Positions 961 to 31,255 of a DNA stretch of 40,997 nt are shown here, one piece after another; positions within the stretch are counted from its first letter, which is position 1; every line of letters starts with the position of its first letter. Source of the stretch: Flavobacteriales bacterium (lineage in GTDB: Bacteria; Bacteroidota; Bacteroidia; Flavobacteriales; BACL11); contig NZWA01000089.1 in assembly GCA_002697505.1 (NCBI GenBank), positions 1-40,997 of the forward strand, given 5' to 3'. A program made the position numbers and the translations under genes. The notes under the pieces were generated by a model. That model had not been told where the DNA came from and did not search any database. It was given only the letters and a program-made list of their open reading frames with translations.

Positions 961-1037
961 AGGTTTCACATACCCTGGCAGAAGGCACACCAGAATAAAA
1001 ATGTGCTGTTCACAAGTAAACAAACAAGGAGATGATT

Positions 1038-15898: not shown

Positions 15899-15923
15899 AA
15901 CATATGATAAATTGGAGAATAAT

Positions 15924-17966: not shown

Positions 17967-18430
17967 TGATTACACCAACACTAAGGTTAAAGTTATCAGA
18001 TTTTATTGATAAACCATGGGAACAAGATGTATTAGATGAATTATCTAATGTAGGGAATGAAGTATTTCAAAACCAATTCACGATTTATTTTTGGTATGAT
18101 AGAAATACAGAATCAATAGATTTGAGTAGGTTAAGTCAGTTCTTGAAACAAAGAGAATCTGAAACTAACAAACCACAAAAAACTATTATCAGACCAGAGT
18201 TTTTTGATAAACAAGTATTTTTTATTTGGTACGATGTAATACCAAGAAGTATACACGAAAATAACCACATTCAATACTCAAGATTTAGTTGGTTGTATAG
18301 TGACCCAAGTACAGGTATAGTTGAAGGTATTAAAAACTTTAAAGAGACTTGGGAATTTGTATCAAGAGACCCAGAAAGAAGACCAAGGAAACAAAAAAGA
18401 AATGATGATGAAAGTAGCAATCATAGGTAG
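17966..18430 (+). CDS. Hypothetical protein with a basic C-terminal tail
   Basis: Coupled ORF (TAATG with the upstream gene). No recognisable motif. Confidence 0.5.
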   Translation: MITPTLRLKLSDFIDKPWEQDVLDELSNVGNEVFQNQFTIYFWYDRNTESIDLSRLSQFLKQRESETNKPQKTIIRPEFFDKQVFFIWYDVIPRSIHENNHIQYSRFSWLYSDPSTGIVEGIKNFKETWEFVSRDPERRPRKQKRNDDESSNHR

Positions 18431-18809
18431 TAGAAGTTATACTAACAAAAGAAAGATAAAAGATTTTGTCTTCAAGTTAAAAGAAAAAGTTGGAGATGAT
18501 TTAGTAATAGTAAGTGGTGGAGCAAAACAAGGTTCTGATAAATATGCAAAACAATATGCACTTGAGTTTGATATAAATTACTCAGAGTTCCCACCATACC
18601 ACGAACCACATAATCAACATTGTGTATATGGTGCATTTAGATACAATAAACAATATAGTGTTGGTAATTACCATAAAAGAAATAAAGACTTAGTAGAATA
18701 TAGTGACAATGTGGTTGCATTTTGTACAGAAGGTAAGATAACAGATGGTACAGGTTCTGCATTAAAGTCCGCAAAAAAAATAGATAAAAAAGTAATTATT
18801 TTTGATTAA
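18402..18809 (+). CDS. DUF2493 (SLOG-superfamily, DprA/Smf-like Rossmann) protein
   Basis: VAIIGSRSY...LVIVSGGAKQGSDKYAKQYA...KRNKDLVEYSDNVVAF...GTGSALKSAKK fits the DUF2493 pattern. The likely start is the ATGATGATG at 18402-18410 rather than the track start at 18321. Confidence 0.55.
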   Translation: MMMKVAIIGSRSYTNKRKIKDFVFKLKEKVGDDLVIVSGGAKQGSDKYAKQYALEFDINYSEFPPYHEPHNQHCVYGAFRYNKQYSVGNYHKRNKDLVEYSDNVVAFCTEGKITDGTGSALKSAKKIDKKVIIFD

Positions 18810-18836
18810 CAAGATACTTATATATATGTATATATA
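18802..18836 (+). promoter_or_regulatory. Class B intergenic motif, copy 2
   Basis: TTGATT is at 18802-18807 and TATATATGTATATATA at 18821-18836, 24 nt upstream of ATG 18860. Confidence 0.45.
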
Positions 18837-18859
18837 GATAACAAACAAAAGAGATTATT

Positions 18860-19054
18860 ATGAGTGAAGACAAATTGACATCAGTAAAAGTTATTGATGA
18901 GTTATATCGTAAGTTCAAAGAGAAATCCATCTCTGAAGACTTTTCATTACAGAAATTAGTAAATCGTAGTTTACATTTATTTGTATATGATGAAGATTTT
19001 AAGGATAAAGTATTAAAAAATAGTGACTTGGAAACAAGTGGTTCTAAATATTAA
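18860..19054 (+). CDS. Small protein, possibly a ribbon-helix-helix DNA-binding protein
   Basis: TSVKVIDELYRKFKEKS...SLQKLVNRSLHLFV has a beta-strand/helix/helix pattern typical of Arc/CopG-like proteins. Weak. Confidence 0.3.
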   Translation: MSEDKLTSVKVIDELYRKFKEKSISEDFSLQKLVNRSLHLFVYDEDFKDKVLKNSDLETSGSKY

Positions 19055-19064
19055 GAGGTTATAG

Positions 19065-20489
19065 ATGCAATTACCAAAACTACAGAAGGTTTCTTCAAGA
19101 CCAAAAAAGAAGAAAATCTTATTGTTGTCAGACGATTTAAGGATGCATAGTGGAGTCGGTACTATGTCAAGAGAAATAGTATTCGGAACTATTGATAAGT
19201 ACGATTGGGTTCAAGTAGGTGGTGCTATCAAACATCCTGATAATGGTAAGATAGTTGATATGAATCAGGCAGTTAGAGAAGAGACTGGTGTAGAGGATGC
19301 ATCATTAAAAATTTATCCAATTGATGGTTATGGAAATCAAGAGATAGTTAGACAACTATTGGTAGAAGAAAAACCAGATGCCATCCTACACTATACAGAC
19401 CCAAGATTTTGGATTTGGTTATATCAAATGGAACACGAGATAAGACAAAGTATTCCAATATTTTATTACAATATATGGGACAACCTACCTTATCCAACAT
19501 GGAATGAACCATTCTATGAGTCTTGTGATTTGATTATGAATATTTCAAAACAAACACATAACATAGTTCATAATGTATGTAAAAATAAACCAAGGACAGA
19601 TTGGGATTCAACTTATATACCACATGGTATCAATGAAAAACATTTTTATCCAATCGTTGATGAAGACGAAACATTCAAAGTAAATAAACTAAGAAATGAA
19701 TTGTTCCAAGGTACTGAAGTAGAATTTTGTATACTATTCATCAATAGAAATATCAGAAGAAAGATGACTTCAGATTTAATTATGGCATTCAAAACATTCG
19801 CAGATGGATTGACAGAAGAACAAAGAAAGAAAGTTGGATTTGTTTTACATACTGAACCAGTTGATAATAATGGAACAGACTTACCTGCAGTTATTGAAGA
19901 GTTATGTCCTGACTTAAACATTGTATTTTCAAAGGATAAACTTAATAATGAAGGAATGAATCAACTCTATAATGCAGTTGACCTTACCGTGAATATTGCA
20001 TCTAATGAAGGATTCGGATTAGGAACTTGTGAATCTCTAATGTGTGGAACACCAATCATAGTAAATGTTACAGGTGGACTACAAGACCAATGTGGGTTCA
20101 AATTTAGAGACCATTTCTTAACTTACAAAGATTATACTAAGATTGAATCACTACACGATTGGAGAAAGTGGGAAAACAATAAAGATTTAACATATGGTGA
20201 ATGGGTAAAACCAGTATGGCCGAGAACTCGTTCAGTTCAAGGTTCAGTACCAACACCATTTATTATGGATGATAGAGTTGATTGGGTTGATGTTGCAGAT
20301 GCATTAAGATATTGGTATGATAAATCACCAGAAGAGAGAAAAGAGGCAGGACTACTTGGACATGAATTCGTAACAGGTGATAATGGTATGATGAGTGCAA
20401 GACACATGAGTGAGTTATTCATAGACCACATGGAAACTGCGTTTGAAAAGTGGACACCAAGAAAAAGTTATGAGGTACATGAAGTATGA
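19065..20489 (+). CDS. Glycosyltransferase, GT-B fold (GT4-like)
   Basis: C-terminal NEGFGLGTCESLMCGTPIIVNVTGGLQDQ (EX7E-type motif). N-terminal KILLLSDD...GVGT. Confidence 0.75.
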   Translation: MQLPKLQKVSSRPKKKKILLLSDDLRMHSGVGTMSREIVFGTIDKYDWVQVGGAIKHPDNGKIVDMNQAVREETGVEDASLKIYPIDGYGNQEIVRQLLVEEKPDAILHYTDPRFWIWLYQMEHEIRQSIPIFYYNIWDNLPYPTWNEPFYESCDLIMNISKQTHNIVHNVCKNKPRTDWDSTYIPHGINEKHFYPIVDEDETFKVNKLRNELFQGTEVEFCILFINRNIRRKMTSDLIMAFKTFADGLTEEQRKKVGFVLHTEPVDNNGTDLPAVIEELCPDLNIVFSKDKLNNEGMNQLYNAVDLTVNIASNEGFGLGTCESLMCGTPIIVNVTGGLQDQCGFKFRDHFLTYKDYTKIESLHDWRKWENNKDLTYGEWVKPVWPRTRSVQGSVPTPFIMDDRVDWVDVADALRYWYDKSPEERKEAGLLGHEFVTGDNGMMSARHMSELFIDHMETAFEKWTPRKSYEVHEV

Positions 20490-21808
20490 GTAAACCATTA
20501 ATATTAGTTACAGGACCAGTTGCCACAAGAAGTGGATATGGTAACCACACAAGAGATATTTGTAGAGCATTGATTGAAAGGGATAAGTATGATATCAGAA
20601 TCCAATCTATGAGATGGGGAAACACACCATTAAATGCATTGGAAGAACATAATCCACACCATAGAGAGATTCATAAAAGAATATTAAAACAACCTTCAAT
20701 GGAAAAACAACCAGATGTACATTTACATATAAGTGTACCAAATGAATTTCAACCATTGGCAAAAAAGAATATTGGAATTACTGCAGGTATAGAACACACA
20801 ATCCCACCAGGTCAATGGGTAGAGGGAATGAATCGTATGGATGTAAATATTATTACATCTGAATGGAGTGCAGTTAATTTCAAGAATGTATCATACGATA
20901 AGAAAGATAATCAAGGTAAGTTAATAGGACAACTAAAAGTTAATAGTCCGATGACTACATTATTTGAAGGTGCAGACCCTGACATATTTAAAGAAACAAA
21001 TGAGTTTTCAAAACAACTTGTTAGTGAGTTTGAGAAAATATCTACTGATTGGAATTTTTTATATACAGGTCATTGGTTACAAGGTGGTTTAGGTGAAGAC
21101 AGAAAAGATGTCGGTATGATGATTAAAGTATTTTTAGAAGTATTTAAGAATCACAAGAATCCACCAGGACTTATACTGAAATCAAGTAGTGCAGGATTCT
21201 CAGTTGTTGATAGGGAAGATATCAAAAAGAAGATTGATTATATCAAGAGAGATATAAAGGCAAAAACACTTCCTAAAATTTGGTTACTACATGGTGACTT
21301 AACAGATGACGAAATGAATCAATTATATAATCATCCAAAAGTAAAGGCACATTTATCATTCACACATGGTGAAGGATTTGGTAGACCATTATTAGAGGCA
21401 TCATTTAGTGGTAAACCTATTATTGCACCATGTGAAACTGGTCAAAAAGATTTCCTTGATGAAAACAATACCGTAAAACTACCTGGTCAATATGTAAAGG
21501 TTCCAAATAGGTCTTTTCCTAAAGAATTTTATGTTGATACTTGTGAGTGGTTTGGTGTAAACTATGGACTTGCATCTCAAATAATTAGAGATGTACATAA
21601 AAACTATACAAAGTATGCTGTCAAGGGTAAGAAACTGATGTTACTTAATAGAAGAATGTTTACTCATGATAAAATGAGAGAGAAATTAGAAGAGATAGTT
21701 GACCAACAATTATCATCACTTCCAAAACAAGTTGATATAAAGTTACCTAACATGAAAAAAGAAGACAAAAAAGAAGACAAAGGTTTACCTAAGTTAAGGA
21801 AGATATAA
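20486..21808 (+). CDS. Glycosyltransferase, GT-B fold (GT1/GT4-like)
   Basis: ILVTGPVATRSGYG at the N-terminus. HGEGFGRPLLEASFSGKPIIAPCETGQKDFL at the C-terminus. Confidence 0.65.
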   Translation: MSKPLILVTGPVATRSGYGNHTRDICRALIERDKYDIRIQSMRWGNTPLNALEEHNPHHREIHKRILKQPSMEKQPDVHLHISVPNEFQPLAKKNIGITAGIEHTIPPGQWVEGMNRMDVNIITSEWSAVNFKNVSYDKKDNQGKLIGQLKVNSPMTTLFEGADPDIFKETNEFSKQLVSEFEKISTDWNFLYTGHWLQGGLGEDRKDVGMMIKVFLEVFKNHKNPPGLILKSSSAGFSVVDREDIKKKIDYIKRDIKAKTLPKIWLLHGDLTDDEMNQLYNHPKVKAHLSFTHGEGFGRPLLEASFSGKPIIAPCETGQKDFLDENNTVKLPGQYVKVPNRSFPKEFYVDTCEWFGVNYGLASQIIRDVHKNYTKYAVKGKKLMLLNRRMFTHDKMREKLEEIVDQQLSSLPKQVDIKLPNMKKEDKKEDKGLPKLRKI

Positions 21809-22251
21809 TGTCAGAAGTAAAAACTAAATGTCCAAATTGTTTTTCTGAGAATCAATGTTTTGAAGAATCTACTGAACACTTTACTTCCTATATTTGTTTT
21901 AAATGTGGGTTCACAAGTAATTCATATTACAAAAATGATACAGAAGAACTAAAAAAGGCAGTTGAATCGTCAACACAATTGATGAATGAGATATCATTAT
22001 TTGACTATGATAGGAAAATAACTTGGTTTCCATCAGTATTAAACATGGGTAAGTTTGGAATAATTTATCCAGATGGTACTAAAAATAATTGGGTGTGGAA
22101 GTTTGCACAAGTAACTAAGTTAACAGAAGAAGAACAGAAAGACCCACAATATGAGGGACATGAACATAAATTAGATGTTGATAATGCACAATCATATGGA
22201 CAACATGAGTTTATGAATGCATGTAAAGATATGGGAATAATTAAAGAATGA
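21808..22251 (+). CDS. Hypothetical zinc-ribbon protein
   Basis: CPNCFSENQC ... CFKCGF near the N-terminus. Confidence 0.45.
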   Translation: MSEVKTKCPNCFSENQCFEESTEHFTSYICFKCGFTSNSYYKNDTEELKKAVESSTQLMNEISLFDYDRKITWFPSVLNMGKFGIIYPDGTKNNWVWKFAQVTKLTEEEQKDPQYEGHEHKLDVDNAQSYGQHEFMNACKDMGIIKE

Positions 22252-22733
22252 AGAACACATCTTGGGAAAGAGTTCAACCAGGTCAAATAGTTTCTTTTGT
22301 TTATAAGAATAAAAATGAAACAAAAGGAATCAAGAGAACCGTATTATGTTTAAGTAAAAGACATCCATATAGAAAGAAGAATGGAAGACTTACATACTTT
22401 TTTGTAGGGTTACAATTAGACACTGCCGTATCAAGACCAATAACTGCATCAAAGTTTCAGTCATTGATTGAACAATTTGGTGGACTAAGTAAAGATAAAA
22501 GGATTACCGAGGTTGGTAACTTTGAAGACACTATGTCAGTATCGGATATTAGACAATTATACAAAACACTAAAAGATTTCATAGAGAAGTATAAAATATT
22601 CAGAACATACAATTTAAGAGAATGTAGAAAAAGAAGAGTTTATCTTGAAGACGATTATCGTTATTTACCAAAAGAGTCTATGGATGATTTACTATTAGAA
22701 CAACAAATATCGGAAATAGATTTTGAACTATGA
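22248..22733 (+). CDS. Hypothetical protein
   Basis: Coupled ORF (ATGA overlap). No motif recognised. Confidence 0.5.
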   Translation: MKNTSWERVQPGQIVSFVYKNKNETKGIKRTVLCLSKRHPYRKKNGRLTYFFVGLQLDTAVSRPITASKFQSLIEQFGGLSKDKRITEVGNFEDTMSVSDIRQLYKTLKDFIEKYKIFRTYNLRECRKRRVYLEDDYRYLPKESMDDLLLEQQISEIDFEL

Positions 22734-23356
22734 AGATTACTTATGGTATAACCGTTCATAATGAACATGAAGAGATAAAGAAACTACTTGAGTTTCTTGT
22801 TGAACATCGTGATGAGGGTGATGAAATTGTTATATGTGATGATTACTCTGATTATCAATGTTGGAGAGTATTTGATGAATACATACATGGACAATATCCT
22901 GACATAGTTTTTTATGAACAACAATTAAATAATGATTTCGCAAGAAAGAAAAATTCAGTTATAGAAAAATCAACAGGTGACTATATATTTCATTTGGATG
23001 CAGACGAAATACCTAATGAAGTTCTCATGTCACAATTAAAAACCATACTTGAAATTAATGATGTAGATTTGATTTGGATTCCAAGAATCAATACGGTTGA
23101 TGGTATCACACAAGACCACATCAATAAGTGGGGATGGGTAGTAACAGAAAAAGGTTGGGTTAATTTTCCTGACTATCAAAGTAGAGTTTTTAGAAACCGA
23201 GATGATATAAGGTGGGAGAGACCAGTACATGAAAGGATTACAGGTTGTAAGACTTACTCACATCTACCACCACATGAAGAGTTATGTATTTATCATCCAA
23301 AAACAATAGAGAAACAAGAAAAACAAAATGAGTTATATAGTAAAATTATTAGATGA
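22730..23356 (+). CDS. Glycosyltransferase family 2-like (GT-A fold)
   Basis: ITYGITVHNEHEEIKKLLEFL...EIVICDDYSD and HLDADE (DxD). Confidence 0.7.
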   Translation: MKITYGITVHNEHEEIKKLLEFLVEHRDEGDEIVICDDYSDYQCWRVFDEYIHGQYPDIVFYEQQLNNDFARKKNSVIEKSTGDYIFHLDADEIPNEVLMSQLKTILEINDVDLIWIPRINTVDGITQDHINKWGWVVTEKGWVNFPDYQSRVFRNRDDIRWERPVHERITGCKTYSHLPPHEELCIYHPKTIEKQEKQNELYSKIIR

Positions 23357-24080
23357 ACTTAAAGACCAAGGTGTCGTAGGTATAAAACAATCATTTGAAG
23401 ATGAAGGTGTATTAGATTCAGACCTTTGGAAAATATCTAAAGTATGTAGAGACTTAGACTTAAAGTTAAGTGTTAAGATTGGTGGTTGTGAGGCTATCTC
23501 TGATATAAATCGTTGTATTGATTTAGAAGTTAATGGTATAGTTGCACCAATGATTGAGTCAAGGTTTGCATTACAAAAGTTTTCAGAGTCTATAAATAAG
23601 TTACCTTATCATGGTAACAAGTTTATTAATATTGAAAGTGTACAGGCATACAAGAATTTAAATGATATATTAGAATCACCTACAAGTAAAATGTTAAGTG
23701 GTATTGTAGTAGGTCGTTCTGATTTAACTAAGTCATTTGGATATGGAAAACAAGATGTTATGTCAGATGAAATTTGTAGAGTAGTAACCTACATACTACA
23801 AGAGTCAAAAAAGTTAGGAATGAAAACATATATGGGTGGAAATATTGGTACTCAAAGTATAGAATTTATTCAAGAGTTATTCAATAAGGGATTCTTAGAT
23901 TGTATTGAGACACGAAATGTTATCTTAGGATTAGATGAAAGTAATATAAATGATTTAAGTAAAATCATTTCACATATGTTAGAGTGGGAATCTTTGTGGT
24001 TGGAAAGTAAGGCAACACATTATAACAGATTCTCAACAGAGTATAATACAAGGTCAAAAGAAATACAAGATAGATTATGA
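23328..24080 (+). CDS. HpcH/HpaI-aldolase / PEP-pyruvate-domain superfamily TIM-barrel enzyme
   Basis: GIVAPMIESRFALQKF ... INIESVQAYKNLNDILE ... GIVVGRSDLTKSFG parallels the PmVes...iEt..a..n..eI...G..DLs motif blocks. Confidence 0.5.
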   Translation: MSYIVKLLDELKDQGVVGIKQSFEDEGVLDSDLWKISKVCRDLDLKLSVKIGGCEAISDINRCIDLEVNGIVAPMIESRFALQKFSESINKLPYHGNKFINIESVQAYKNLNDILESPTSKMLSGIVVGRSDLTKSFGYGKQDVMSDEICRVVTYILQESKKLGMKTYMGGNIGTQSIEFIQELFNKGFLDCIETRNVILGLDESNINDLSKIISHMLEWESLWLESKATHYNRFSTEYNTRSKEIQDRL

Positions 24081-25201
24081 CAAGACAAGAACAATTACAA
24101 GAGTTATTCCACAATAACCAATATTTTAAAATGATATGTGGTGCAGGTAACGAAGATACCGAAGAAGTCAGAAGACTTGCAATGATTTATACATTGGCAG
24201 GTGCAAAAGGATTAGATATTTCAACAACACCTGATGTAGTAAAGGCGGCGATGGATGGTATTGATAGGGCATATGATATATCAGATAAACTTGGTATTGA
24301 TATTGGTGTAAGACCATATATTATGGTTAGTGTTGGAATGCCAGGTGACCATCATGTAAGAAAGGCACTTATAAATGAAGATACTTGTGTTAAGTGTGGT
24401 TTATGTGTTGCACCAGTTTGTCCTACAGAAGCGATTGAACCTATTCAAATAAAAGTTGAGACTGCATTTGTGATTACTGAGAAATGTATTGGGTGTGGTG
24501 CATGTAGTGCAGTTTGTCCTATTGTAGAGTGTATAACTTATAGTCATAATGAAAAGGCATTAGAAGAATTATTACCACAATGTTTAGAGTTAGGTGCAGA
24601 GAATATAGAGTTACACGCGGCAGTTGCAGAAACTGATGTAATTATGAAAGAATGGGAAATGGTTATTAAGGCAAATCCTGATGGACATAATAGTATGTGT
24701 TTAGATAGATTACACATTGGAAACTTTCAATTAAAAGATAGAATTGAAAAGGCATTGGAGATGACTAAACCAGGTTTAATGATATTACAGGCAGATGGTT
24801 ATCCAATGAGTGGTGGTAGAAATGATTTCAATACAACATTACAGGCAGTTGCAACTGCAGATGTAGTTAATAAACAATTTAACATGAGATTAAATAAGAA
24901 AGATAAACAATTAATATACAAAAGAAGAAGAGAGTTAAATGTTGTATTATCAGGTGGAACTAATTCATTAACTGCAGACTTGGCACTACAAGGTAATGTA
25001 AGATTCCAAGGAGTTGCAGTTGGAACATTTGCAAGAAACTTAATTTACAAACATATTAAAGAAGTCTACGATTATAATGATATGGAATTTTATAATGATT
25101 TAAATAATATTCGTGAAGCATATCTTATTGGAAAACAATTAGTAGATAGTAACATAAATAAAGGTGAAAGTTATGGGTCAAACACTTATATTCGCAGTTG
25201 A
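24077..25201 (+). CDS. Fe-S protein with 2x[4Fe-4S] ferredoxin motifs in a TIM-barrel-like context (LdpA-like)
   Basis: CVKCGLCVAPVCP and CIGCGACSAVCP. The N-terminal KMICGAGNED...IYTLAGAKGLDISTTPDVVKAAMDGI resembles cyanobacterial LdpA-type proteins, as far as I recall them. Confidence 0.55.
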   Translation: MTRQEQLQELFHNNQYFKMICGAGNEDTEEVRRLAMIYTLAGAKGLDISTTPDVVKAAMDGIDRAYDISDKLGIDIGVRPYIMVSVGMPGDHHVRKALINEDTCVKCGLCVAPVCPTEAIEPIQIKVETAFVITEKCIGCGACSAVCPIVECITYSHNEKALEELLPQCLELGAENIELHAAVAETDVIMKEWEMVIKANPDGHNSMCLDRLHIGNFQLKDRIEKALEMTKPGLMILQADGYPMSGGRNDFNTTLQAVATADVVNKQFNMRLNKKDKQLIYKRRRELNVVLSGGTNSLTADLALQGNVRFQGVAVGTFARNLIYKHIKEVYDYNDMEFYNDLNNIREAYLIGKQLVDSNINKGESYGSNTYIRS

Positions 25202-25544
25202 TTTTGATGGTTGTTTAGCAGAATTTGATTTTCCAAGTATAGGAGAACAAACTTCAAAACAAAAAAAATTAATGAATATTTTAAAAAAATTACAAGACAA
25301 AGGACATAAATTAATATTATGGACAAGTAGAGGTGAACCTGCACTACAAGAAGCAATTGATTGGTGTGAAGAAAAGGGATTGATATTTGATATGCATCAA
25401 GTTAATCCATTTACCAAAAAGATATCAGGACCGAGTCCTAAGATAATTGCAGACTATTATATTGATGATAAGGCATTAGAATTTGGTGATAATGAATCAC
25501 GAGACAGAACACTATTTTTATTGGAGAGATTGTTAGATGAGTAG
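25173..25544 (+). CDS. HAD-superfamily phosphatase-like protein
   Basis: FAVDFDGCL (motif I), ILWTSRG (motif II), YIDDKA (motif IV). AAGGTGA upstream favours ATG 25173 over the GTG at 25164. Confidence 0.55.
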   Translation: MGQTLIFAVDFDGCLAEFDFPSIGEQTSKQKKLMNILKKLQDKGHKLILWTSRGEPALQEAIDWCEEKGLIFDMHQVNPFTKKISGPSPKIIADYYIDDKALEFGDNESRDRTLFLLERLLDE

Positions 25545-26205
25545 GAAAAAAATAACCGCAGTGGTTCCTATTAGAAAAGGGTCACAAAGGATAATAGACA
25601 AGAACTTTATTCCATTTGTTGATGGGAAGAGTTTACTTGAGGTCAAACTTGAAATATTGAAGAAGATTACTTTAATTGATGAAATTATTGTTAATACTGA
25701 TTCAGATAAGGCATTAGAGATTGCAGACAAATATGGTGTTAGTAAAAAAGAAAGAGAACCATACTTTGCAAGTAATGAGTGTACCAATAGTGAGTTCTTT
25801 CAGAACATGGCAGAAACAACTGATACAGATTATTTAATCTATAGTCCATGTACTGCACCATTAGTTGAAGAGAGTACTTATTATGATTTCATTAATAGGT
25901 TTATCAATGGTATAGATAATGGACACGATAGTTTGACTACCGTAAATGTATTAAAACACCATATGTGGTTAGATGGAAAACCATTGAACTATGACCCAAA
26001 GAATTCACCAAATACACAAGACCTACCTGATATCTACAAACTAACTTATAGTCTTTCAATTATAGAAAGAGAGGCAATGTTAGAGTGTAAAAATATAGTT
26101 GGTAACACACCACACTTTTATCAGATAGATGAAGTTGAGGGAGTTGATATTGATAATCAGATTGACTTTGATTTTGCAAAGTTTTTATATGGGAGAGTAA
26201 AATAA
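25537..26205 (+). CDS. Acylneuraminate/ulosonate cytidylyltransferase family (CMP-sugar synthetase, NeuA/PseF/KdsB-like)
   Basis: ITAVVPIRKGSQRIIDKNFIPFVDGKSLLEVKLEIL...EIIVNTDSD matches aiIPARgGSKrl..KN...l.GkpLi...vsTDs. Confidence 0.75.
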   Translation: MSRKKITAVVPIRKGSQRIIDKNFIPFVDGKSLLEVKLEILKKITLIDEIIVNTDSDKALEIADKYGVSKKEREPYFASNECTNSEFFQNMAETTDTDYLIYSPCTAPLVEESTYYDFINRFINGIDNGHDSLTTVNVLKHHMWLDGKPLNYDPKNSPNTQDLPDIYKLTYSLSIIEREAMLECKNIVGNTPHFYQIDEVEGVDIDNQIDFDFAKFLYGRVK

Positions 26206-26885
26206 TGAAAGATTTCAATTTATTGAAAGATATTTATAAAGACAAAGACATTTATGTCATTAGTGGAGGCCCTTCACTTAATCACATAGATAAGAGTTTT
26301 TTTGAAAACAAAATAGTCCTTGGAGTAAATGACATATTCAGATACTTTGATTGTGATTATGTAGTTGTAAAAGATTGTAATGAAGAACCAAGGTTTACAA
26401 GATTGGTACAAGAACTAAAAGAAAAAGATATACCATTAATCTATAGTCAGTACTATAAAGGTTATGAAGAAAAGGGATTAAATAATTGTGATAATCCTAA
26501 TTCATACATGTTCACACACAACCCAAGAAAAAAAGATTTTGATATGGAGATGATGGAACTTGATATTGACGAGGAGATTATTGTTAGTCGTTCAACCGTA
26601 ACAACTGCAATACATATTGCATATTATATGGGTGCAAAAAATATCATACTATGTGGACATGATGGTGGAGAGATTGATGGTCAAATGTATTATCATGAAT
26701 ATGTAGAGAAAGATTGGAAGTCTGCAAGTAATTGGGATGGTATAAAAGGATTCTTAAACAACATGGAAAGAGAGACAATTGCACTAAAACAATTATTAAA
26801 TTTTCATGATGTAAATATTTGTTCAATGAATCCATTTATTAATTTACGATTAGAAGGAACTAAATTTGAAACTTATAAGATATAG
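26205..26885 (+). CDS. DUF115 (MptE-like / motility-accessory-factor-type) putative nonulosonic-acid transferase
   Basis: DIYVISGGPSLNHID...IVLGVNDIFRYFDCDYVVVKD ... ILCGHDG resembles the GxGPSL...D core of Maf/DUF115 and CstII-like sialyltransferases. Confidence 0.5.
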   Translation: MKDFNLLKDIYKDKDIYVISGGPSLNHIDKSFFENKIVLGVNDIFRYFDCDYVVVKDCNEEPRFTRLVQELKEKDIPLIYSQYYKGYEEKGLNNCDNPNSYMFTHNPRKKDFDMEMMELDIDEEIIVSRSTVTTAIHIAYYMGAKNIILCGHDGGEIDGQMYYHEYVEKDWKSASNWDGIKGFLNNMERETIALKQLLNFHDVNICSMNPFINLRLEGTKFETYKI

Positions 26886-26894
26886 GAGATAAAG

Positions 26895-27797
26895 ATGAAT
26901 ATATTAGTAACAGGTGGAGCAGGATTTATAGGAACGAACTTAATTGAAAGATTATTGGAAGATGGTCATAAGGTAGTCAGTATAGATAATTACTCAACAG
27001 GATTTGAAACGAATGAGATAGAACATGAAAATGTAACCTATCATAATGTGGATTTAAGAGATGCAATTGATTTTGATTTCTTTATGGAGAATCCAGATTT
27101 AATTTATCATCTTGCAGCACTACCAAGAATCCAACCATCATTTGAGTTCCCTGCATTAACCTTTGAGGCAAATGTACTTGGAACAATTAATTTGTTGGAG
27201 TGGATTAGAAGTAAAGAAAATAAAATACCTATAGTTTATGCAGGGTCAAGTAGTTTTCATGGTGGAGTATACAAGAATCCTTACACATTTACAAAGTGGC
27301 AAGGTGAAGAAGTAGTTCAGATGTATCATAAAACATACGATATACCGATGAGTATATGTAGATTTTATAATGTATATGGCCCACACCAATTAACTGAGGG
27401 TGAATATTGTACCGTAATTGGTATCTTTGAGAAACAATTCCGAGAAGGTAAAGAACTAACTATTACAGGTGATGGTGAACAGAGAAGAGATTTTACTCAT
27501 GTGTTTGATATCGTAGATGGATTTGTAAAATGTGGTAATTCTTTAGTAATTCCAAATGCCTATAACGCCAAAGTTGATGGAGAAATTTTTGAATTGGGTA
27601 AGGGTGAAAATCATTCAATAAATGTAATCGCTCAATCATTTGATTCAGGATATACTTACATACCTAAAAGACCAGGTGAAGTTCAAGAAACACTTTGTAC
27701 AGATACAAAGGCACATGAATTATTAGGTTGGAAACCTACAATAGATGTATTAGATTACATTGAAGGAGTAAGAGTCTTATGGACAGAAAAAATGTAG
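26895..27797 (+). CDS. NAD-dependent nucleotide-sugar epimerase/dehydratase (extended SDR)
   Basis: ILVTGGAGFIGTNL, a catalytic YTFTK (YxxxK), and YAGSSS. Confidence 0.85.
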   Translation: MNILVTGGAGFIGTNLIERLLEDGHKVVSIDNYSTGFETNEIEHENVTYHNVDLRDAIDFDFFMENPDLIYHLAALPRIQPSFEFPALTFEANVLGTINLLEWIRSKENKIPIVYAGSSSFHGGVYKNPYTFTKWQGEEVVQMYHKTYDIPMSICRFYNVYGPHQLTEGEYCTVIGIFEKQFREGKELTITGDGEQRRDFTHVFDIVDGFVKCGNSLVIPNAYNAKVDGEIFELGKGENHSINVIAQSFDSGYTYIPKRPGEVQETLCTDTKAHELLGWKPTIDVLDYIEGVRVLWTEKM

Positions 27798-28531
27798 TAT
27801 TTATGACTTGTATGGATGGTGCACCAGATATATTAGATTATAAAGAATGGTGTTTTAAATCATGGGACTATTGGTGTAAAAAAAATAATGTAGAATTATT
27901 TGTACTTGACCAAGAGATAAAAGACAAGTCAATTATGAAACCAACATGGCAAAGATGGTGGGTACATGAAATACTTGAGTCTAATGAAATAGAATATGAC
28001 CAAGTTGCATTAGTAGATGTGGACACAATGGTTCATTGGGATTGTCCTAATTTCTTTGAACAAACAGATGGTGAGTTCAGTGCAGTGATGGATAAGTTTA
28101 ATATTGAATGGACACATAATAGTATTAAAGGTTATCAAGACTTCTGGCCTGATGTAAAGTTTGATTGGACAAGTTATTTTAATTGTGGATTCATAGTGAT
28201 GAGTAAGAAACACAAAGGTTTATGTAAAGAGATTATAGACTTTTATCTTGAGAATGAAGATGAACTCAGAAAAAGACAACATGAAACACTTAAGAAAGGG
28301 TCAGACCAAACACCAATCAACTACATGATTCGTGCAAGTGAACACGAACTGAAATATCTTGATGAAAGGTTTAACTTATCACAATTACATCTGAGAGGTG
28401 TTTTGGGTGGATTATGTCCTATGTGGGAAGTTGGTCATGTATGGCACTTCAATGGATTTGAAAAAACACAAAGGAATCAATTAATGATGCAAGTATGGAA
28501 TCAAATCAAGGAGAACTATGAAGAAAATTAG
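27779..28531 (+). CDS. GT-A fold glycosyltransferase (GT8-like)
   Basis: VALVDVDTMV (DxD) followed by YFNCGFIVMSKKH, like GT8 ylDsDiiv ... NsGvml. Confidence 0.5.
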   Translation: MDRKNVVFMTCMDGAPDILDYKEWCFKSWDYWCKKNNVELFVLDQEIKDKSIMKPTWQRWWVHEILESNEIEYDQVALVDVDTMVHWDCPNFFEQTDGEFSAVMDKFNIEWTHNSIKGYQDFWPDVKFDWTSYFNCGFIVMSKKHKGLCKEIIDFYLENEDELRKRQHETLKKGSDQTPINYMIRASEHELKYLDERFNLSQLHLRGVLGGLCPMWEVGHVWHFNGFEKTQRNQLMMQVWNQIKENYEEN

Positions 28532-28745
28532 ACATAGTAAATTACCAATCACATTAGAATCATCAGACCCATTAACACCTGAGATGTTACATACTATACA
28601 ATTAAATCTTATGTATGATGAAAAAGATAGTAAAAGAGAAAATCTTCGTGGATGGGAATTGTGGGTAGATGAATATGGTGAATGGTTTAATCCATATCCA
28701 AAAGATAAAAACCAAATGGAGTTGTTTAATGAACTTAAAAAGTAA
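28518..28745 (+). CDS. Hypothetical protein
   Basis: 75-aa coupled ORF. No motif recognised. Confidence 0.4.
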   Translation: MKKIRHSKLPITLESSDPLTPEMLHTIQLNLMYDEKDSKRENLRGWELWVDEYGEWFNPYPKDKNQMELFNELKK

Positions 28746-29751
28746 ATATGCAATAGGTTGTCATGTAATGTTCTATGAAATAGAAATATTAGATGAATAT
28801 TTAAACTCAGTAAAGAAGGCAGTTGAGATAGTACAGAATCCTGAGAATATTATTGTTGAATTGTTTTTCAATATATCAGAATTTTTTGAAGAGATAGATA
28901 CTGAGACCACTACAAAAAAAGAACTGATAAAGAAATTCAATAGTAAGTGTTCAGAGATGTCTAAACTTGGAGTGTTAGTTAAGAGTCAAGTCTATGACCA
29001 AAACAAACCTTATTGTATTGCAGATTACAGAAGAGACTTTAATTATAAATGGTGTAATGTAGTTGATTATTTAGTATGGGGTGAAAGTGATTGTTTATTA
29101 CCAAGAGAATTCTTTCATGTGTTAGAGGGTGTAAAAGAATATGCAAACTCTCAAGAAATCTACAGATATACATTAACATTTGCACTTAGAAAAATGTGGG
29201 ACGAGAGTTGGAGAATATTAGAACATCCTGAATTTACCAATAAACCATATTACGATATGGACACCGAGGAAGATACTAAGTTGGCATTAAACTCACCATG
29301 GAGTATTAGATATACTATGAGTCAAGAAGAGATGGAAGAGGTAAATGACAAAACAGAAGAACTTGATGTTCAATTAATTACTTCACCTAAATTTGATGGT
29401 AGTTGTTTAGTAATGAGTTCAGATTTAGTGAGAGGTGGAGTTAATTTACCACCTGCAGTATCAATGGTAGGTGATGATACAAGTTTTATGGCAATGTGTC
29501 AGAAATTAATGGGTGATGACTATAGACAATTTGTTATTAAGAATGTACTAAAGGTTCATAATAGAAACCATCCAAGAAAAAGACTTTATGTTAAGGATGA
29601 AGATAAGTCCAAGTCCACACACTTCAAGAGAAGAGATAATAATTGGTATCAGACAATCACAAAGATGAGTAAAGGAAATTTAAATAAATTGTTTGGTGGA
29701 CAAGTTAAATTTAAAACATATGGGGAGTTCAAAGATGAAATCAAAAAATAG
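28729..29751 (+). CDS. Hypothetical protein (possibly a GT-A-like transferase)
   Basis: The first in-frame ATG is at 28729. The track start at 28669 would overlap the upstream ORF by 77 nt. WGESDCLLPREFF could be a DxD-like site. Weak. Confidence 0.4.
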   Translation: MNLKSKYAIGCHVMFYEIEILDEYLNSVKKAVEIVQNPENIIVELFFNISEFFEEIDTETTTKKELIKKFNSKCSEMSKLGVLVKSQVYDQNKPYCIADYRRDFNYKWCNVVDYLVWGESDCLLPREFFHVLEGVKEYANSQEIYRYTLTFALRKMWDESWRILEHPEFTNKPYYDMDTEEDTKLALNSPWSIRYTMSQEEMEEVNDKTEELDVQLITSPKFDGSCLVMSSDLVRGGVNLPPAVSMVGDDTSFMAMCQKLMGDDYRQFVIKNVLKVHNRNHPRKRLYVKDEDKSKSTHFKRRDNNWYQTITKMSKGNLNKLFGGQVKFKTYGEFKDEIKK

Positions 29752-30166
29752 AAGATGGTTACCAACATTAGGTGAGTTAATAGATAGATTAAGTATTCAT
29801 CAATTGAAAGAGTTATTTATACCTGAAAACAAGGACAACTATGCTCAAGAAATGAATGATATGGTTCATGATATTAATTTAATATTAAGAGAACACAAAG
29901 GTGAGATTACAGGTGAAGTCATTAGGGCCATTATAGTGTTATCACAAATGAACGCTCATATATGGTATAATGAATCACAAGTTCGTAAAGGTGAAAAGGG
30001 TAGTGATAATCTGATGTTAACTCATGGATTAAATGGAATTAGAAATACTGCCGTAAATAAAATCATGGAAGTGGTTGGTGGTAGAAAAGACTACAAGGTA
30101 GATTGTATTGCATCTGAATTTAAAGATTGGGAAGTAAGTTGGGATGTTCCAAGAAACAAGAAGTAG
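29735..30166 (+). CDS. Hypothetical helical protein (DUF4254-like)
   Basis: GGGGAG RBS lies 7 nt before ATG 29735. GELIDRLSIHQLKE ... NAHIWYNESQVR resembles DUF4254, a family often found next to glycosyltransferases. Low certainty. Confidence 0.35.
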   Translation: MKSKNRRWLPTLGELIDRLSIHQLKELFIPENKDNYAQEMNDMVHDINLILREHKGEITGEVIRAIIVLSQMNAHIWYNESQVRKGEKGSDNLMLTHGLNGIRNTAVNKIMEVVGGRKDYKVDCIASEFKDWEVSWDVPRNKK

Positions 30167-30350
30167 GTCAACACAAAAATCAATCACATGGAGATTGATT
30201 GCATTTAGTAATTCATGGATGATACTGGCATTAGGGTTGACTGAATTACCATTTTGGAATGCAGTGATTATGAATGTAACAGGAATGATAATGTTTTATT
30301 TCCATGAAAGAGTATGGAATAGAGTAAGGAGTGGAAGAAATGTTAATTAA
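30144..30350 (+). CDS. DUF2061-like small membrane protein
   Basis: KSITWRLIAFS...MFYFHERVWNRV fits the K-x-x-x-WR ... HER-x-W pattern of DUF2061. Confidence 0.4.
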   Translation: MFQETRSRSTQKSITWRLIAFSNSWMILALGLTELPFWNAVIMNVTGMIMFYFHERVWNRVRSGRNVN

Positions 30351-30579
30351 AATATTAAAAAAAATAAAAGATTGGGTAGACCCAAACTATTGGGCCGAGA
30401 AGATAGGTGAAGAGAGTGGTCTATATGATAAGGCAAGAAATTCAAAGTCTCGTAAATGGGTTGATAGTTTAGAGGGTTGGAAATGGTGGACATATCAAAT
30501 AGTCGGTGGTATTATATTTGTAATTATTATAGAGTTCCTACTTAATTTAGTCGGTATGACTATGTTACCTTGGAGATAA
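30331..30579 (+). CDS. Small membrane protein (C-terminal TM helix)
   Basis: WWTYQIVGGIIFVIIIEFLLNLVGMTMLPW is a hydrophobic segment. Confidence 0.45.
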   Translation: MEEMLIKILKKIKDWVDPNYWAEKIGEESGLYDKARNSKSRKWVDSLEGWKWWTYQIVGGIIFVIIIEFLLNLVGMTMLPWR

Positions 30580-30580
30580 A

Positions 30581-31255
30581 GTGACAGAAACAAATTTAAT
30601 AGTTGCAATAGATGATTTACATCCACAGAAAGGTTGGGGTTGTGAAGGTGATATTCAAGTAGAGTATCTAAAAGAACTCAATAAAAAATATGGAGTTAAA
30701 TTCAATTTATTTTGTCCAAGTTATTATCATAATGAATATCCATTAACAAAAGATTGGGTATCATATTGGAAACAATTTGATTGGGTGGAGTTGAGTAATC
30801 ATGGACATTACCACGATGTCAAAAAATACACCAAAGAAGAAATAGGTGAACAAGAATTCTTAGAATTAAATAAAGATGAGGCAGTGGATAGAGTTAGAGA
30901 TAGTTTAAATCTATGGGAACAATGTGGACACAAACCAAAAGGATTCAGAGCACCAGGTTGGGGAATATCACAAGAGGCTGCAGATGTAGTTAGTGAAAAC
31001 TTTGAATGGGTTGCACAACATGAACAAATCAATCAAGGTATACGATTTGACACTAAGTTATTTTGGGGTGCAGATGGTATTCATCAAAGTGATGATGTAA
31101 AATTATATGGAAACACATTTATGTTCCAATCACATATACAAGGAGATTGGAATGATAATACATGGAATGAAGAAAATTTTAACTATTTTCAGAGAATCTT
31201 AGACTATTTATTATCACAATTCAAAATAGAGTTCAAAACAATTTCAGAGTTATGA
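30581..31255 (+). CDS. Polysaccharide deacetylase-like (NodB/DUF2334-type) protein
   Basis: GTG start. IAIDDLHP, NHGHYHD and FRAPGWGIS correspond to the D-D, H-x-x-x-H and R-x-P-x-G blocks. Confidence 0.5.
   Translation: MTETNLIVAIDDLHPQKGWGCEGDIQVEYLKELNKKYGVKFNLFCPSYYHNEYPLTKDWVSYWKQFDWVELSNHGHYHDVKKYTKEEIGEQEFLELNKDEAVDRVRDSLNLWEQCGHKPKGFRAPGWGISQEAADVVSENFEWVAQHEQINQGIRFDTKLFWGADGIHQSDDVKLYGNTFMFQSHIQGDWNDNTWNEENFNYFQRILDYLLSQFKIEFKTISEL

What the first reader, a model, noticed from the sequence alone, without database searches (positions are those of the whole stretch)
23328..26885. Possible non-canonical route to a CMP-activated 3-deoxy-2-ulosonic (sialic/Kdo-like) acid
Five coupled genes form the module: an HpcH/HpaI-type (PEP/pyruvate-domain) TIM-barrel enzyme, a 2x[4Fe-4S] LdpA-like protein, a HAD phosphatase, a NeuA/KdsB-family cytidylyltransferase and a DUF115 (Maf/CstII-like) transferase. 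The last three are the usual back end of nonulosonic or octulosonic acid pathways: dephosphorylate, CMP-activate, transfer.

No NeuB/KdsA-type PEP-condensing synthase is recognisable anywhere in the window. HpcH-family enzymes are class II pyruvate aldolases that make 4-hydroxy-2-keto acids, which are formally 3-deoxy-2-ulosonic acids. The aldolase-fold protein may therefore replace the canonical synthase. The Fe-S protein would have an unexplained redox role.
Basis: inference. Interest (0 to 1): 0.72.

Follow-up and report, generated by a model that had tools for sequence, protein, structure and literature searches.

The report
NeuB-less CMP-sugar-acid module in phage
An uncultured marine phage carries a recurrent five-gene module that probably makes and CMP-activates an acidic keto-sugar without the usual NeuB/KdsA synthase, using a divergent aldolase-fold enzyme and an iron-sulfur barrel protein of unknown chemistry.

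Summary
At 23328-26885 five overlapping + strand genes encode:
- a divergent HpcH/HpaI-fold enzyme ("HpcHw")
- an LdpA-like TIM barrel with two [4Fe-4S] motifs
- a small capless HAD phosphatase
- a NeuA/PseF-type cytidylyltransferase (CMPT)
- a DUF115/MptE-like protein

No NeuB or KdsA is encoded anywhere in the window.

The set is not a chance neighbourhood. HpcHw sits beside its own CMPT in dozens of viral and bacterial loci (SAR11, SAR86). Where a NeuB is present, it comes with a second CMPT.

Four qualifications apply:
- HpcHw keeps both metal ligands but has Lys for the catalytic Arg and Asp for the catalytic His.
- The LdpA-like gene is optional. A sister phage lacks it and has a swapped CMPT and HAD.
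- HpcHw also occurs with YerE-like TPP enzymes or with a second, canonical aldolase, so all it clearly supplies is some 2-oxo acid.
- The DUF115 protein could be a transferase or a kinase.

I found no literature on this module, no solved relative of the LdpA-like barrel, and no copy of the HpcHw or LdpA-like gene in a deposited phage genome. It is a new variant of a known kind; the chemistry is inferred.

The parts
23328..24080 (+). HpcHw, a divergent HpcH/HpaI-fold metal-dependent 2-oxo-acid C-C lyase/synthase. It is the proposed backbone-forming step.
   Evidence: Pfam PF03328 scores 28.2 bits. The AF2 model has pLDDT 95.7. Foldseek top hits are SbnG, HpcH/HpaI/YfaU/GarL and PK barrels at TM about 0.6. 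The profile aligns E103 and D132 with the YfaU Mg ligands E153 and D179. K50 replaces the catalytic Arg and D25 replaces the His. 808 homologues were found, with invariant motifs KQS[FT]EDEG, KIGGCEA, APM[IV]E, NIES and GRSDL.
24077..25201 (+). LdpA-like TIM barrel with an inserted 2x[4Fe-4S] ferredoxin domain (C104/107/110/115 and C137/140/143/147). It is an optional redox accessory, probably acting on a phosphorylated intermediate.
   Evidence: Pfam Fer4_21 and LdpA_C match, and NCBIfam LdpA scores 144 bits against a cut-off of 450. The AF2 model is a barrel with pLDDT 79 and a low-confidence Fe-S insert. There is no specific structural relative (TM at most 0.48) or sequence relative in PDB. 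Family-wide invariants are K18, D47, S85, D91, H93, K96, E178, H180, Q238, D240, GGxN296 and G312/G316/R320. The gene is absent from sister loci L074/L075, L081 and L008.
25164..25544 (+). Small capless (C0) HAD phosphatase of the BT0820 type. The listed start is GTG; an ATG lies at 25173.
   Evidence: NCBIfam NF046079 scores 76 bits and PDB 2obb gives E 1.9e-14. The motifs D13-x-D15-G, T54/S55, K93 and D101-D102 can be read in the translation. In L074 and L081 it is replaced by an unrelated small HAD placed after the CMPT.
25537..26205 (+). NeuA/PseF-type CMP-ulosonate cytidylyltransferase (CMPT).
   Evidence: PF02348 scores 39.3 bits. TIGR03584 PseF scores 67 bits over the full length. KdsB models score at most 24 bits and there is no IspD hit. 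The PDB hits are NeuA enzymes only. The N-terminal PIRKGSQRxxDKN and C-terminal VDIDxxxDFD motifs are present.
26205..26885 (+). DUF115/MptE-like protein. It is either a Maf/sialyltransferase-like transferase for the CMP-acid or a (pyro)phosphokinase supplying a phospho-precursor.
   Evidence: PF01973 scores 47 bits. PHROG 4603, annotated 'alpha-2,3-sialyltransferase', scores 29.6 bits. A profile gives a weak hit to archaeal MptE 8sd5 at E 0.096. The gene co-occurs with the CMPT in viral modules. Homologous domains are fused to LdpA-like and HMGL-like enzymes in L067.
22730..23356 (+). GT2 glycosyltransferase that overlaps the first gene. It is context and a possible user of the product.
   Evidence: Pfam Glycos_transf_2 scores 62 bits. 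It is syntenic and 94% identical in L074.
26895..27797 (+). NAD-dependent sugar epimerase/dehydratase (GalE/LegB-like). It is context and a possible supplier of the sugar precursor.
   Evidence: Pfam Epimerase scores 170 bits. NCBIfam GalE scores 114 bits and LegB 108 bits.

Best explanation
The five genes form a module, inside a larger phage glycan-biosynthesis block, that builds and CMP-activates an acidic keto-sugar (a 2-ulosonic acid) without a NeuB/KdsA-type PEP-condensing synthase.

Proposed order of steps, all inferred:
1. HpcHw binds a 2-oxo acid, most simply pyruvate, through the conserved Mg2+ ligands E103 and D132. It condenses the enolate with a phosphorylated aldose to give a 3-deoxy-2-ulosonate phosphate.
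2. When present, the LdpA-like Fe-S barrel performs a redox tailoring step on a phosphorylated intermediate.
3. The capless HAD removes the phosphate, which makes the reversible aldol step irreversible.
4. The PseF/NeuA-like enzyme forms the CMP-acid.
5. The DUF115 protein, or one of the neighbouring glycosyltransferases, transfers the acid.

Shown: gene identities, folds, conserved residues, recurrent synteny, and absence of NeuB/KdsA. Inferred: every chemical step and the identity of the sugar.
For: -
- No NeuB/KdsA is present in the window.
- HpcHw is adjacent to a dedicated CMPT in window-like phages L072-L077, in minimal modules L074/L075/L081/L082 (MptE, HpcHw, CMPT, HAD'), in SAR11 loci L011-L017, in SAR86 locus L008 and in cellular loci L001/L070.
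- L070 carries a complete Pse set (two dehydratase/epimerase-family (Polysacc_synt_2/Epimerase) genes upstream, candidate PseB; DegT/PseC; a PseG-like gene; an acetyltransferase; NeuB; and its own CMPT) in addition to the cassette with a second CMPT.
- The number of CMPT genes equals the number of HpcH plus NeuB genes in 33 of 42 loci. Examples are 3 = 1 + 2 in L103/L136/L141 and 2 = 1 + 1 in L011/L014/L070.
- Everything found downstream of HpcHw across module types consumes a 2-oxo acid: CMPT, ALS/YerE-like TPP enzymes, or canonical HpcH aldolases.
- The window and L074 form a natural swap. Flanking genes are 87-98% identical, HpcHw 90% and DUF115 93%. LdpA is absent from L074, the CMPT is only 62% identical, and the HAD is non-orthologous (28%). 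This fits LdpA changing the molecule that the HAD and CMPT handle.
- The LdpA-family barrel keeps a standard phosphate-binding GGxN...GxxxGxxxR motif and acid/His residues at strand ends.
Against: - The catalytic Arg70 and His45 of HpaI-type aldolases are Lys50 and Asp25 here, so aldolase activity is not assured.
- In L080, L083 and type B loci, HpcHw sits beside a canonical HpcH aldolase. In L067 and L068 the canonical enzyme, not HpcHw, pairs with LdpA, HAD and CMPT. HpcHw may therefore make a precursor rather than the backbone.
- Type B and type C modules have no CMPT within the fetched flanks (one of the 15, L087, has a weak CMPT-like ORF about 9 kb away).
- The DUF115 protein is unchanged across the LdpA swap and is fused to biosynthetic enzymes elsewhere, which fits an upstream kinase as well as a transferase.
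- The host may supply NeuB or KdsA.
- The CMPT/synthase count uses redundant and truncated loci.
- No biochemical data exist, and I found no paper on the module.
Confidence: 0.45

Rival explanations
1. Precursor or side-chain module. HpcHw, with LdpA and HAD, makes a small or unusual 2-oxo acid or aldehyde rather than the ulosonic backbone. Other enzymes use that compound. In the window the CMPT would activate an ulosonic acid whose backbone is made by a host NeuB/KdsA-type synthase or another aldolase.
For: - HpcHw-LdpA-HAD occurs upstream of a canonical HpcH aldolase plus CMPT in L080 and L083.
- The same trio occurs with an ALS/YerE-like TPP enzyme and RfbH(E1) but no nearby CMPT in L084-L097.
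- In L067 and L068 an HMGL-like aldolase takes HpcHw's place next to LdpA.
- HpcHw lacks the catalytic Arg and His of pyruvate aldolases.
Against: - Minimal phage modules (L074, L081: DUF115, HpcHw, CMPT, HAD') contain no other C-C-forming enzyme.
- Loci that hold NeuB always carry an extra CMPT for it.
- PseF/NeuA-type enzymes need a cyclic 2-ulosonic acid, which a small keto acid cannot form. This rests on established knowledge of the family.
Confidence: 0.27
2. Kinase reading of DUF115. The MptE-like protein is an ATP-dependent (pyro)phosphokinase that makes the phosphorylated aldose used by HpcHw. This would mirror the ManNAc kinase - synthase - phosphatase - CMP-synthetase order of animal sialic acid synthesis. 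Transfer of the acid would be done by a neighbouring glycosyltransferase.
For: - The only solved relative is the archaeal pyrophosphokinase MptE, and the match is weak (E 0.096).
- Its 226 aa is close to the 241 aa of that kinase.
- MptE-like domains are fused to LdpA-like and HMGL-like biosynthetic enzymes in L067.
- The protein stays 93% identical across the LdpA/HAD/CMPT swap, as HpcHw does.
- A phosphatase is always present in the module.
Against: - A PHROG family annotated as sialyltransferase matches it.
- Pfam PF01973 also contains the Maf CMP-NulO transferases.
- In the viral modules examined the protein co-occurs with a CMPT.
- The fusion-domain hits are below the Pfam cut-off.
Confidence: 0.3
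3. Phosphonate-type pathway. HpcHw acts like PEP mutase, and the module makes a CMP-linked phosphonate, in the way PepM-Ppd-PntC systems decorate glycans.
For: - The fold belongs to the same PEP/pyruvate superfamily.
- TPP enzymes and aminotransferases accompany HpcHw in type B and C loci.
- Marine SAR11-type organisms are known phosphonate producers (from my own knowledge).
Against: - The PepM hallmark EDKxxxxxNS is absent; the sequence reads FEDEG.
- There is no Pfam PEP_mutase hit.
- The TPP enzyme is a three-domain ALS/YerE-like protein, not Ppd. The aminotransferase is an RfbH equivalog scoring 461 bits against a cut-off of 423.
- The CMPT is PseF/NeuA-like, not LicC/PntC-like.
- A hydrolytic HAD has no role in that pathway.
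Confidence: 0.04

Closest known systems
Kdo and Kdn/Neu5Ac-9-P pathways (KdsA-KdsC-KdsB; Kdn9P synthase - BT1713 phosphatase - CMP-Kdn synthetase; NANS-NANP-CMAS)
   Same: The logic is the same: condense a C3 unit with a phosphorylated aldose, dephosphorylate with a capless HAD, then CMP-activate with a CTP_transf_3-family enzyme. The HAD and CMPT here belong to the same superfamilies.
   Different: - No NeuB/KdsA-type PEP-condensing synthase is present. A divergent HpcH/HpaI-fold enzyme sits in its place.
- An Fe-S TIM barrel is added.
- The HAD and CMPT score below the equivalog cut-offs of every named family.
HpcH/HpaI class II pyruvate aldolases (HpaI, YfaU, GarL, SwHKA) and SbnG
   Same: - The fold matches.
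- The PMxE, xxES and GxxDL motifs match.
- Both metal ligands are kept.
- These enzymes make or cleave 4-hydroxy-2-oxo acids, which are 3-deoxy-2-ulosonic acids.
   Different: - Identity is only 12-18%.
- Lys replaces the catalytic Arg and Asp replaces the His.
- Invariant KQSFEDEG and KIGGCEA motifs are specific to this subfamily.
- A 44-residue C-terminal helix is added.
- None of the known members is linked to a cytidylyltransferase.
Cyanobacterial LdpA (circadian-clock input protein) and plastid Ycf23/DUF561
   Same: It is homologous over residues 12-333. It has the same barrel plus 2x[4Fe-4S] insert architecture and the LdpA_C domain.
   Different: - It scores 144 bits against an equivalog cut-off of 450.
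- It is encoded in glycan operons of heterotrophs and phages, next to aldolase-fold enzymes.
- LdpA itself has no known enzymatic activity.
Maf flagellin NulO-transferases, GT42 sialyltransferases and archaeal MptE
   Same: It is a member of Pfam PF01973, with the GGPS and GxDG motifs. It matches a PHROG family annotated as sialyltransferase.
   Different: - It is a bare 226-aa domain without the flanking domains of Maf.
- No significant match to Maf or CstII sequences was found in PDB.
Yersiniose-type branched-sugar pathways (RfbH/E1 plus YerE)
   Same: Sister modules of types B and C combine HpcHw with an RfbH equivalog and an ALS/YerE-like TPP enzyme. That suggests the HpcHw product can serve as a 2-oxo-acid donor.
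   Different: The window carries neither enzyme; it has a CMPT instead.

Membership tests
HpcH/HpaI aldolase/citrate-lyase family (PF03328) | The profile match reaches Pfam's gathering score. | tested here: met
   It scores 28.2 bits against a cut-off of 25, covering residues 57-165 only. All 120 listed homologues carry PF03328.
HpcH/HpaI aldolase/citrate-lyase family (PF03328) | A (beta/alpha)8 barrel of the PEP/pyruvate superfamily. | tested here: met
   The AF2 model has pLDDT 95.7. Foldseek top hits are SbnG, HpcH, HpaI, YfaU, GarL and PK, with E from 1e-9 to 1e-7 and TM about 0.6.
HpcH/HpaI aldolase/citrate-lyase family (PF03328) | The two acidic divalent-metal ligands (YfaU E153/D179; HpaI E149/D175). 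| tested here: met
   E103 (NIES) and D132 (GRSDL) align to them and are invariant in 41 sequences.
HpcH/HpaI aldolase/citrate-lyase family (PF03328) | The catalytic Arg (HpaI R70) and the D-x-E-H motif (H45) of class II pyruvate aldolases. | tested here: not met
   Invariant K50 aligns with the Arg of canonical paralogues. S-F-E-D aligns with D-x-E-H.
NeuB / KdsA / DAHPS PEP-condensing synthases | A homologue is encoded in the window. | tested here: not met
   Pfam scans of all ORFs of 130 aa or more found none. jackhmmer found none either, with NeuB positive controls in other loci and no positive control for KdsA.
LdpA (NCBIfam NF045992 equivalog) | The score reaches the equivalog cut-off. 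| tested here: not met
   It scores 144 bits against 450, although the alignment spans residues 12-333.
LdpA / DUF561 architecture | A TIM barrel with two CxxCxxCxxxCP motifs inserted after strand 3, plus the LdpA_C domain. | tested here: met
   C104/107/110/115 and C137/140/143/147 are invariant. LdpA_C scores 27.8 bits against a cut-off of 22.2. AF2 models a barrel.
HAD phosphatase superfamily | Motifs I (DxDG), II (S/T), III (K) and IV (DD). | tested here: met
   D13-F-D15-G, T54/S55, K93 and D101-D102 can be read in the translation. PDB 2obb gives E 1.9e-14.
BT0820-family HAD (NF046079 equivalog) | The score reaches the cut-off. | tested here: not met
   It scores 76 bits against 165.
CMP-ulosonate cytidylyltransferases (PF02348: KdsB/NeuA/PseF/LegF) | The profile match reaches the gathering score, and the N-terminal PxRxGSxR...KN and C-terminal DxD motifs are present. 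| tested here: met
   PF02348 scores 39.3 bits against 22.6. The PDB hits are NeuA enzymes only. The motifs are visible in the translation.
PseF (TIGR03584 equivalog) | The score reaches the cut-off. | tested here: not met
   It scores 67 bits against 205.7, over the full length.
IspD/TarI cytidylyltransferases (PF01128) | A profile match. | tested here: not met
   No PF01128 hit was found for the window protein at E <= 0.01.
MptE-like / DUF115 (PF01973) | The profile match reaches the gathering score. | tested here: met
   It scores 47 bits against 34.6, covering residues 3-156.
Maf / GT42 sialyltransferase-like transferases | A CMP-sugar binding site and a catalytic His seen in a structure. 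| not testable with these tools
There is no PDB sequence hit to Maf or CstII. The only link is a PHROG annotated as sialyltransferase at 29.6 bits.
PEP mutase (ICL/PEPM) | The EDKxxxxxNS motif or a PF13714 match. | tested here: not met
   The sequence reads FEDEGVL and there is no PEP_mutase hit.

The most novel reading that the evidence does not exclude
HpcHw defines a third, pyruvate-dependent and metal-dependent class of ulosonic-acid synthase, non-homologous to NeuB/KdsA. SAR11, SAR86 and their phages would use it to make a so far undescribed CMP-activated sugar acid. The LdpA/Ycf23 family, known only as a cyanobacterial clock-input 'redox sensor' and as orphan plastid ORFs, would in fact be Fe-S oxidoreductases acting on sugar or keto-acid phosphates.
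Probability: 0.3. Interest if true: 0.8.

Novelty: new variant of a known kind. Interest (0 to 1): 0.62.

Why it matters
CMP-activated ulosonic acids (sialic, pseudaminic and legionaminic acids, Kdo) cap cell surfaces and govern phage and immune recognition. Every known route to them starts with a NeuB/KdsA-type PEP-condensing synthase.

A widespread NeuB-independent route in abundant ocean bacteria and their phages would matter in several ways:
- It would add a new enzyme class and probably a new sugar to that chemistry.
- It would mean surveys that use NeuB as the marker for such sugars miss part of them.
- It would give the first enzymatic context for the LdpA/Ycf23 family.
- It would show phages carrying a self-contained acidic-sugar pathway, presumably to remodel the host surface or decorate virions.

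The natural cassette swap, with and without LdpA, offers a ready-made experiment to find what the Fe-S enzyme does.

Tried and rejected
- **Close phage relatives.** blastn of 22700-27800 against GenBank phages found only a 110-nt epimerase match. tblastn of HpcHw and of the LdpA-like protein found nothing.
- **Literature.** Eight searches used the terms LdpA, HpcH, cytidylyltransferase, nonulosonic, ulosonic, Ycf23 and HpaI aldolase, in various combinations. None returned a paper on this module. [quoted passage not shown]
- **Third Fe-S cluster in the LdpA-like barrel.** I considered C21, C169 and C208 as ligands of an IspG/IspH-like site. I rejected this because these Cys are only about 43-57% conserved across the wider family.
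- **Solved relative of the LdpA barrel.** Foldseek gave only generic TIM barrels at TM 0.48 or less. A profile with the Fe-S insert removed found nothing significant in PDB.
- **DUF115 against Maf/CstII by sequence.** Nothing was significant. The best hit was MptE at E 0.096.
- **Promoter and terminator scan of 18500-31500.** Results did not exceed those from shuffled sequence.
- **tRNAs.** None in the window.
- **PEP-mutase/phosphonate reading.** Rejected on motif, Pfam assignment and the type of partner enzymes.
- **An early impression that L080 and L083 lacked a CMPT.** This was wrong. Pfam showed a divergent CTP_transf_3 gene there.

Full report
**1. What is in the window**

The window has about 31% G+C, and almost all its genes are on the + strand. 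It encodes phage replication functions:
- a family B DNA polymerase (3879-6386)
- a clamp-loader ATPase (8816-9760)
- a PD-(D/E)XK nuclease
- a ClpP-like protease

It also carries a long block of glycan genes. A 98%-identical copy of the first gene lies on an IMG/VR viral contig. No deposited phage genome resembles the region.

The five ORFs of the finding are exactly where stated and overlap one another. Their assignments are:
- HpcH_HpaI: 28.2 bits.
- A 2x[4Fe-4S] LdpA-like protein: NCBIfam LdpA scores 144 bits over residues 12-333, far below the 450-bit equivalog cut-off.
- A 126-aa HAD: BT0820 type, PDB 2obb at E 1.9e-14.
- A CTP_transf_3 cytidylyltransferase: best model is PseF at 67 bits over the full length, and the best solved relatives are NeuA enzymes.
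- A DUF115/MptE-like protein: 47 bits.

No NeuB or KdsA was found. Pfam scans covered every ORF of 130 aa or more. NeuB hits in other loci served as positive controls, and one was independently annotated PF03102. KdsA had no positive control.

**2. The aldolase-fold protein (HpcHw)**

It has more than 800 homologues, mostly from marine metagenomes. They share invariant motifs KQS[FT]EDEG, KIGGCEA, APM[IV]E, NIES and GRSDL.

With a 41-sequence alignment, AlphaFold gives a confident barrel (pLDDT 95.7) with a 44-residue C-terminal helix. Foldseek places it nearest SbnG, HpcH/HpaI, YfaU, GarL, the hydroxy-keto-acid aldolase SwHKA and pyruvate-kinase barrels. TM is about 0.6 and identity 12-18%.

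A family profile aligns NIES and GRSDL to the YfaU stretch containing the Mg2+ ligands E153 and D179. I aligned HpcHw with canonical HpcH paralogues found in related loci. Invariant K50 occupies the position of the catalytic Arg, and S-F-E-D replaces the D-x-E-H motif.

So HpcHw is a true member of the superfamily and keeps the metal/2-oxo-acid site. It is a distinct subfamily with altered catalytic residues. The PEP-mutase hallmark is absent.

**3. The Fe-S protein**

AlphaFold models a TIM barrel (pLDDT 79) with a poorly modelled ferredoxin insert at residues 105-148. Nothing in PDB is specifically similar, either by fold (TM at most 0.48) or by sequence after removing the insert.

The family is large, with 110 clusters at 50% identity scoring E <= 1e-30. 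Across 94 diverse members the invariant residues are:
- the eight ferredoxin Cys
- K18, D47, S85, D91, H93, K96, E178, H180, Q238 and D240
- a classical phosphate-binding pattern, GGxN296 and G312/G316/R320

The extra Cys of the close relatives (C21, C169, C208) are not conserved family-wide, so a third cluster is unlikely. My inference is a metal- or acid/base-assisted active site that acts on a phosphorylated substrate and is wired to two electron-transfer clusters.

**4. Comparative genomics**

I fetched 59 genome loci, 80 viral loci and several metagenome contigs, then scanned their ORFs with the window's proteins.

| Module type | Gene content | Where found |
|---|---|---|
| A | HpcHw-LdpA-HAD-CMPT-DUF115 | window, L072, L073, L076, L077 |
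| A without DUF115 | HpcHw-LdpA-HAD-CMPT | cellular O-antigen-like loci L001 and L070 |
| A' | DUF115, HpcHw, CMPT and a different small HAD; no LdpA | L074, L075, L081, L082 |
| b | HpcHw-CMPT, or HpcHw-HAD-CMPT | SAR11 and SAR86 (L008, L011-L017) |
| Two-aldolase | HpcHw-LdpA-HAD-canonical HpcH-CMPT-DUF115 | L080, L083 |
| HMGL | HMGL-like aldolase-LdpA-HAD-canonical HpcH-CMPT | L067, L068 |
| B | ALS/YerE-like TPP enzyme-canonical HpcH-HpcHw-LdpA-HAD plus an RfbH equivalog; no adjacent CMPT | L084-L097 |
| C | HpcHw-SDR-AroB-related phospholyase (TIGR04425, 446 bits)-TPP enzyme-DegT-epimerase-GT2 | Legionella, Coxiellaceae, Planctomycetota, Vampirovibrionales and more than 40 viral contigs |

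In L067, MptE-like domains are fused to both the HMGL-like and the LdpA-like protein.

Three conclusions follow.

First, HpcHw and a dedicated CMPT form a recurrent pair whether or not NeuB is present. L070 has a full Pse gene set with its own CMPT plus the cassette with a second CMPT. CMPT numbers equal HpcH plus NeuB numbers in 33 of 42 loci. That count includes redundant and truncated loci.

Second, every consumer found next to HpcHw acts on a 2-oxo acid: a CMP-transferase, a TPP enzyme or an aldolase. So its product is very likely a 2-oxo acid.

Third, LdpA is optional and always sits beside an aldolase-fold enzyme.

**5. A natural experiment**

L074 is a syntenic sister of the window. Flanking genes are 87-98% identical, HpcHw is 90% identical and the DUF115 protein 93%. 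The segment LdpA-HAD-CMPT is replaced by CMPT'-HAD'. The CMPT is only 62% identical, the HAD only 28%, and LdpA is missing.

The simplest reading is that LdpA changes the molecule that the phosphatase and the cytidylyltransferase must handle. HpcHw's substrates would stay the same. The unchanged DUF115 protein is either tolerant of the change or acts upstream of it.

**6. Most likely mechanism (inferred)**

1. HpcHw condenses a Mg-bound 2-oxo-acid enolate, most simply pyruvate, with a phosphorylated aldose.
2. LdpA, when present, performs a redox tailoring step on a phospho-intermediate.
3. The HAD dephosphorylates the product.
4. The CMPT forms the CMP-acid. Hydrolysis of the phosphate and release of pyrophosphate pull the reversible aldol step forward.
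5. The DUF115 protein or a neighbouring glycosyltransferase transfers the acid.

I put this at about 0.45. The main rival, at about 0.27, is that HpcHw with LdpA and HAD supplies a precursor or side-chain keto acid, and the backbone comes from another enzyme or from the host. The support for that rival is the coexistence of HpcHw with canonical HpcH aldolases and with YerE-like enzymes, together with the altered catalytic residues.

The role of DUF115 is open. A sialyltransferase-annotated PHROG matches it and Pfam places it with Maf. Against that, it is fused to biosynthetic enzymes elsewhere and its weak nearest solved relative is the pyrophosphokinase MptE.

A phosphonate pathway is unlikely, at about 0.04.

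**7. Comparison with known systems and novelty**

The logic matches the Kdo and Kdn/Neu5Ac-9-P pathways: synthase, then C0-type HAD, then CTP_transf_3 enzyme. The synthase, however, is replaced by a non-homologous and atypical HpcH-fold enzyme, and an LdpA-family Fe-S barrel is added.

None of the five proteins reaches an equivalog cut-off of a characterised family. The first two and the CMPT have no PHROG family. I found no paper on the module.

I rate it a new variant of a known kind. Interest is 0.62: a widespread, uncharacterised and experimentally tractable module, but with every chemical step still inferred.

Noticed in passing
L018-L066 (genomes) and L098-L151 (viral contigs), e.g. L058:3233-12591: A second conserved cassette is built around an HpcHw paralogue: DegT/RfbH-like, NDP-sugar epimerase/dehydratase, three-domain ALS/YerE-like TPP enzyme, SDR, AroB-related 'sugar phosphate phospholyase (cyclizing)' (TIGR04425, 446 bits), HpcHw and GT2. 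It is found in Legionella, Coxiellaceae, Planctomycetota (Singulisphaera acidiphila), Vampirovibrionales, a Wolbachia of Folsomia, and more than 40 viral contigs including giant-virus MAGs. It looks like an uncharacterised branched or carbocyclic sugar pathway.
   Followed up: partly
L067:2343-5686 (protein P0198 and its upstream neighbour): MptE-like/DUF115 domains appear fused to the C-terminus of an HMGL-like (DmpG/IPMS-type) enzyme and to the N-terminus of the LdpA-like protein in the same operon. The Pfam matches are weak (E 0.003 and 0.03). This is an odd arrangement for a terminal glycosyltransferase.
   Followed up: partly
L068:3297-12331: One contig carries two different aldolase+CMPT modules side by side. 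The first is HAD-GAPDH-like-CMPT-HpcH-PGDH-like 2-hydroxyacid dehydrogenase. The second is HMGL-like-LdpA-HAD-HpcH-CMPT. This suggests a family of interchangeable precursor-supply sets.
   Followed up: no
window 1032-3767: A 911-aa phage ORF has the N-terminal architecture of a Bacteroidota TonB-dependent receptor: CarboxypepD_reg-like domain plus Plug domain. No barrel match was found. It could be a receptor-binding or host-mimicking protein.
   Followed up: no
window 11242-12651: A 469-aa ORF has a weak class II aminoacyl-tRNA-synthetase core match (tRNA-synt_2b, 34 bits). It lies in the glycan block and no tRNA gene is in the window. It may be an amino-acid ligase that modifies a sugar.
   Followed up: no
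window 16310-17140: A UDP-glucose/GDP-mannose dehydrogenase homologue is only 276 aa. The match starts at position 70 of the NAD-binding profile and the C-terminal domain is missing. The upstream ORF (15912-16310) is a DUF1599 protein, not the missing N-terminus.
   Followed up: no
window 30581-34314: Further glycan-tailoring genes lie downstream: a DUF2334 (polysaccharide-deacetylase-like) protein, a radical SAM/SPASM enzyme (32127-33140) and a GT2 (33127-34314). The glycan block therefore spans more than 20 kb of the window.
   Followed up: no
window 18321-18809: A SLOG-family (YAcAr / DprA-like) protein sits next to a DUF2515 protein. SLOG domains are often linked to nucleotide or modified-base metabolism.
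   Followed up: no
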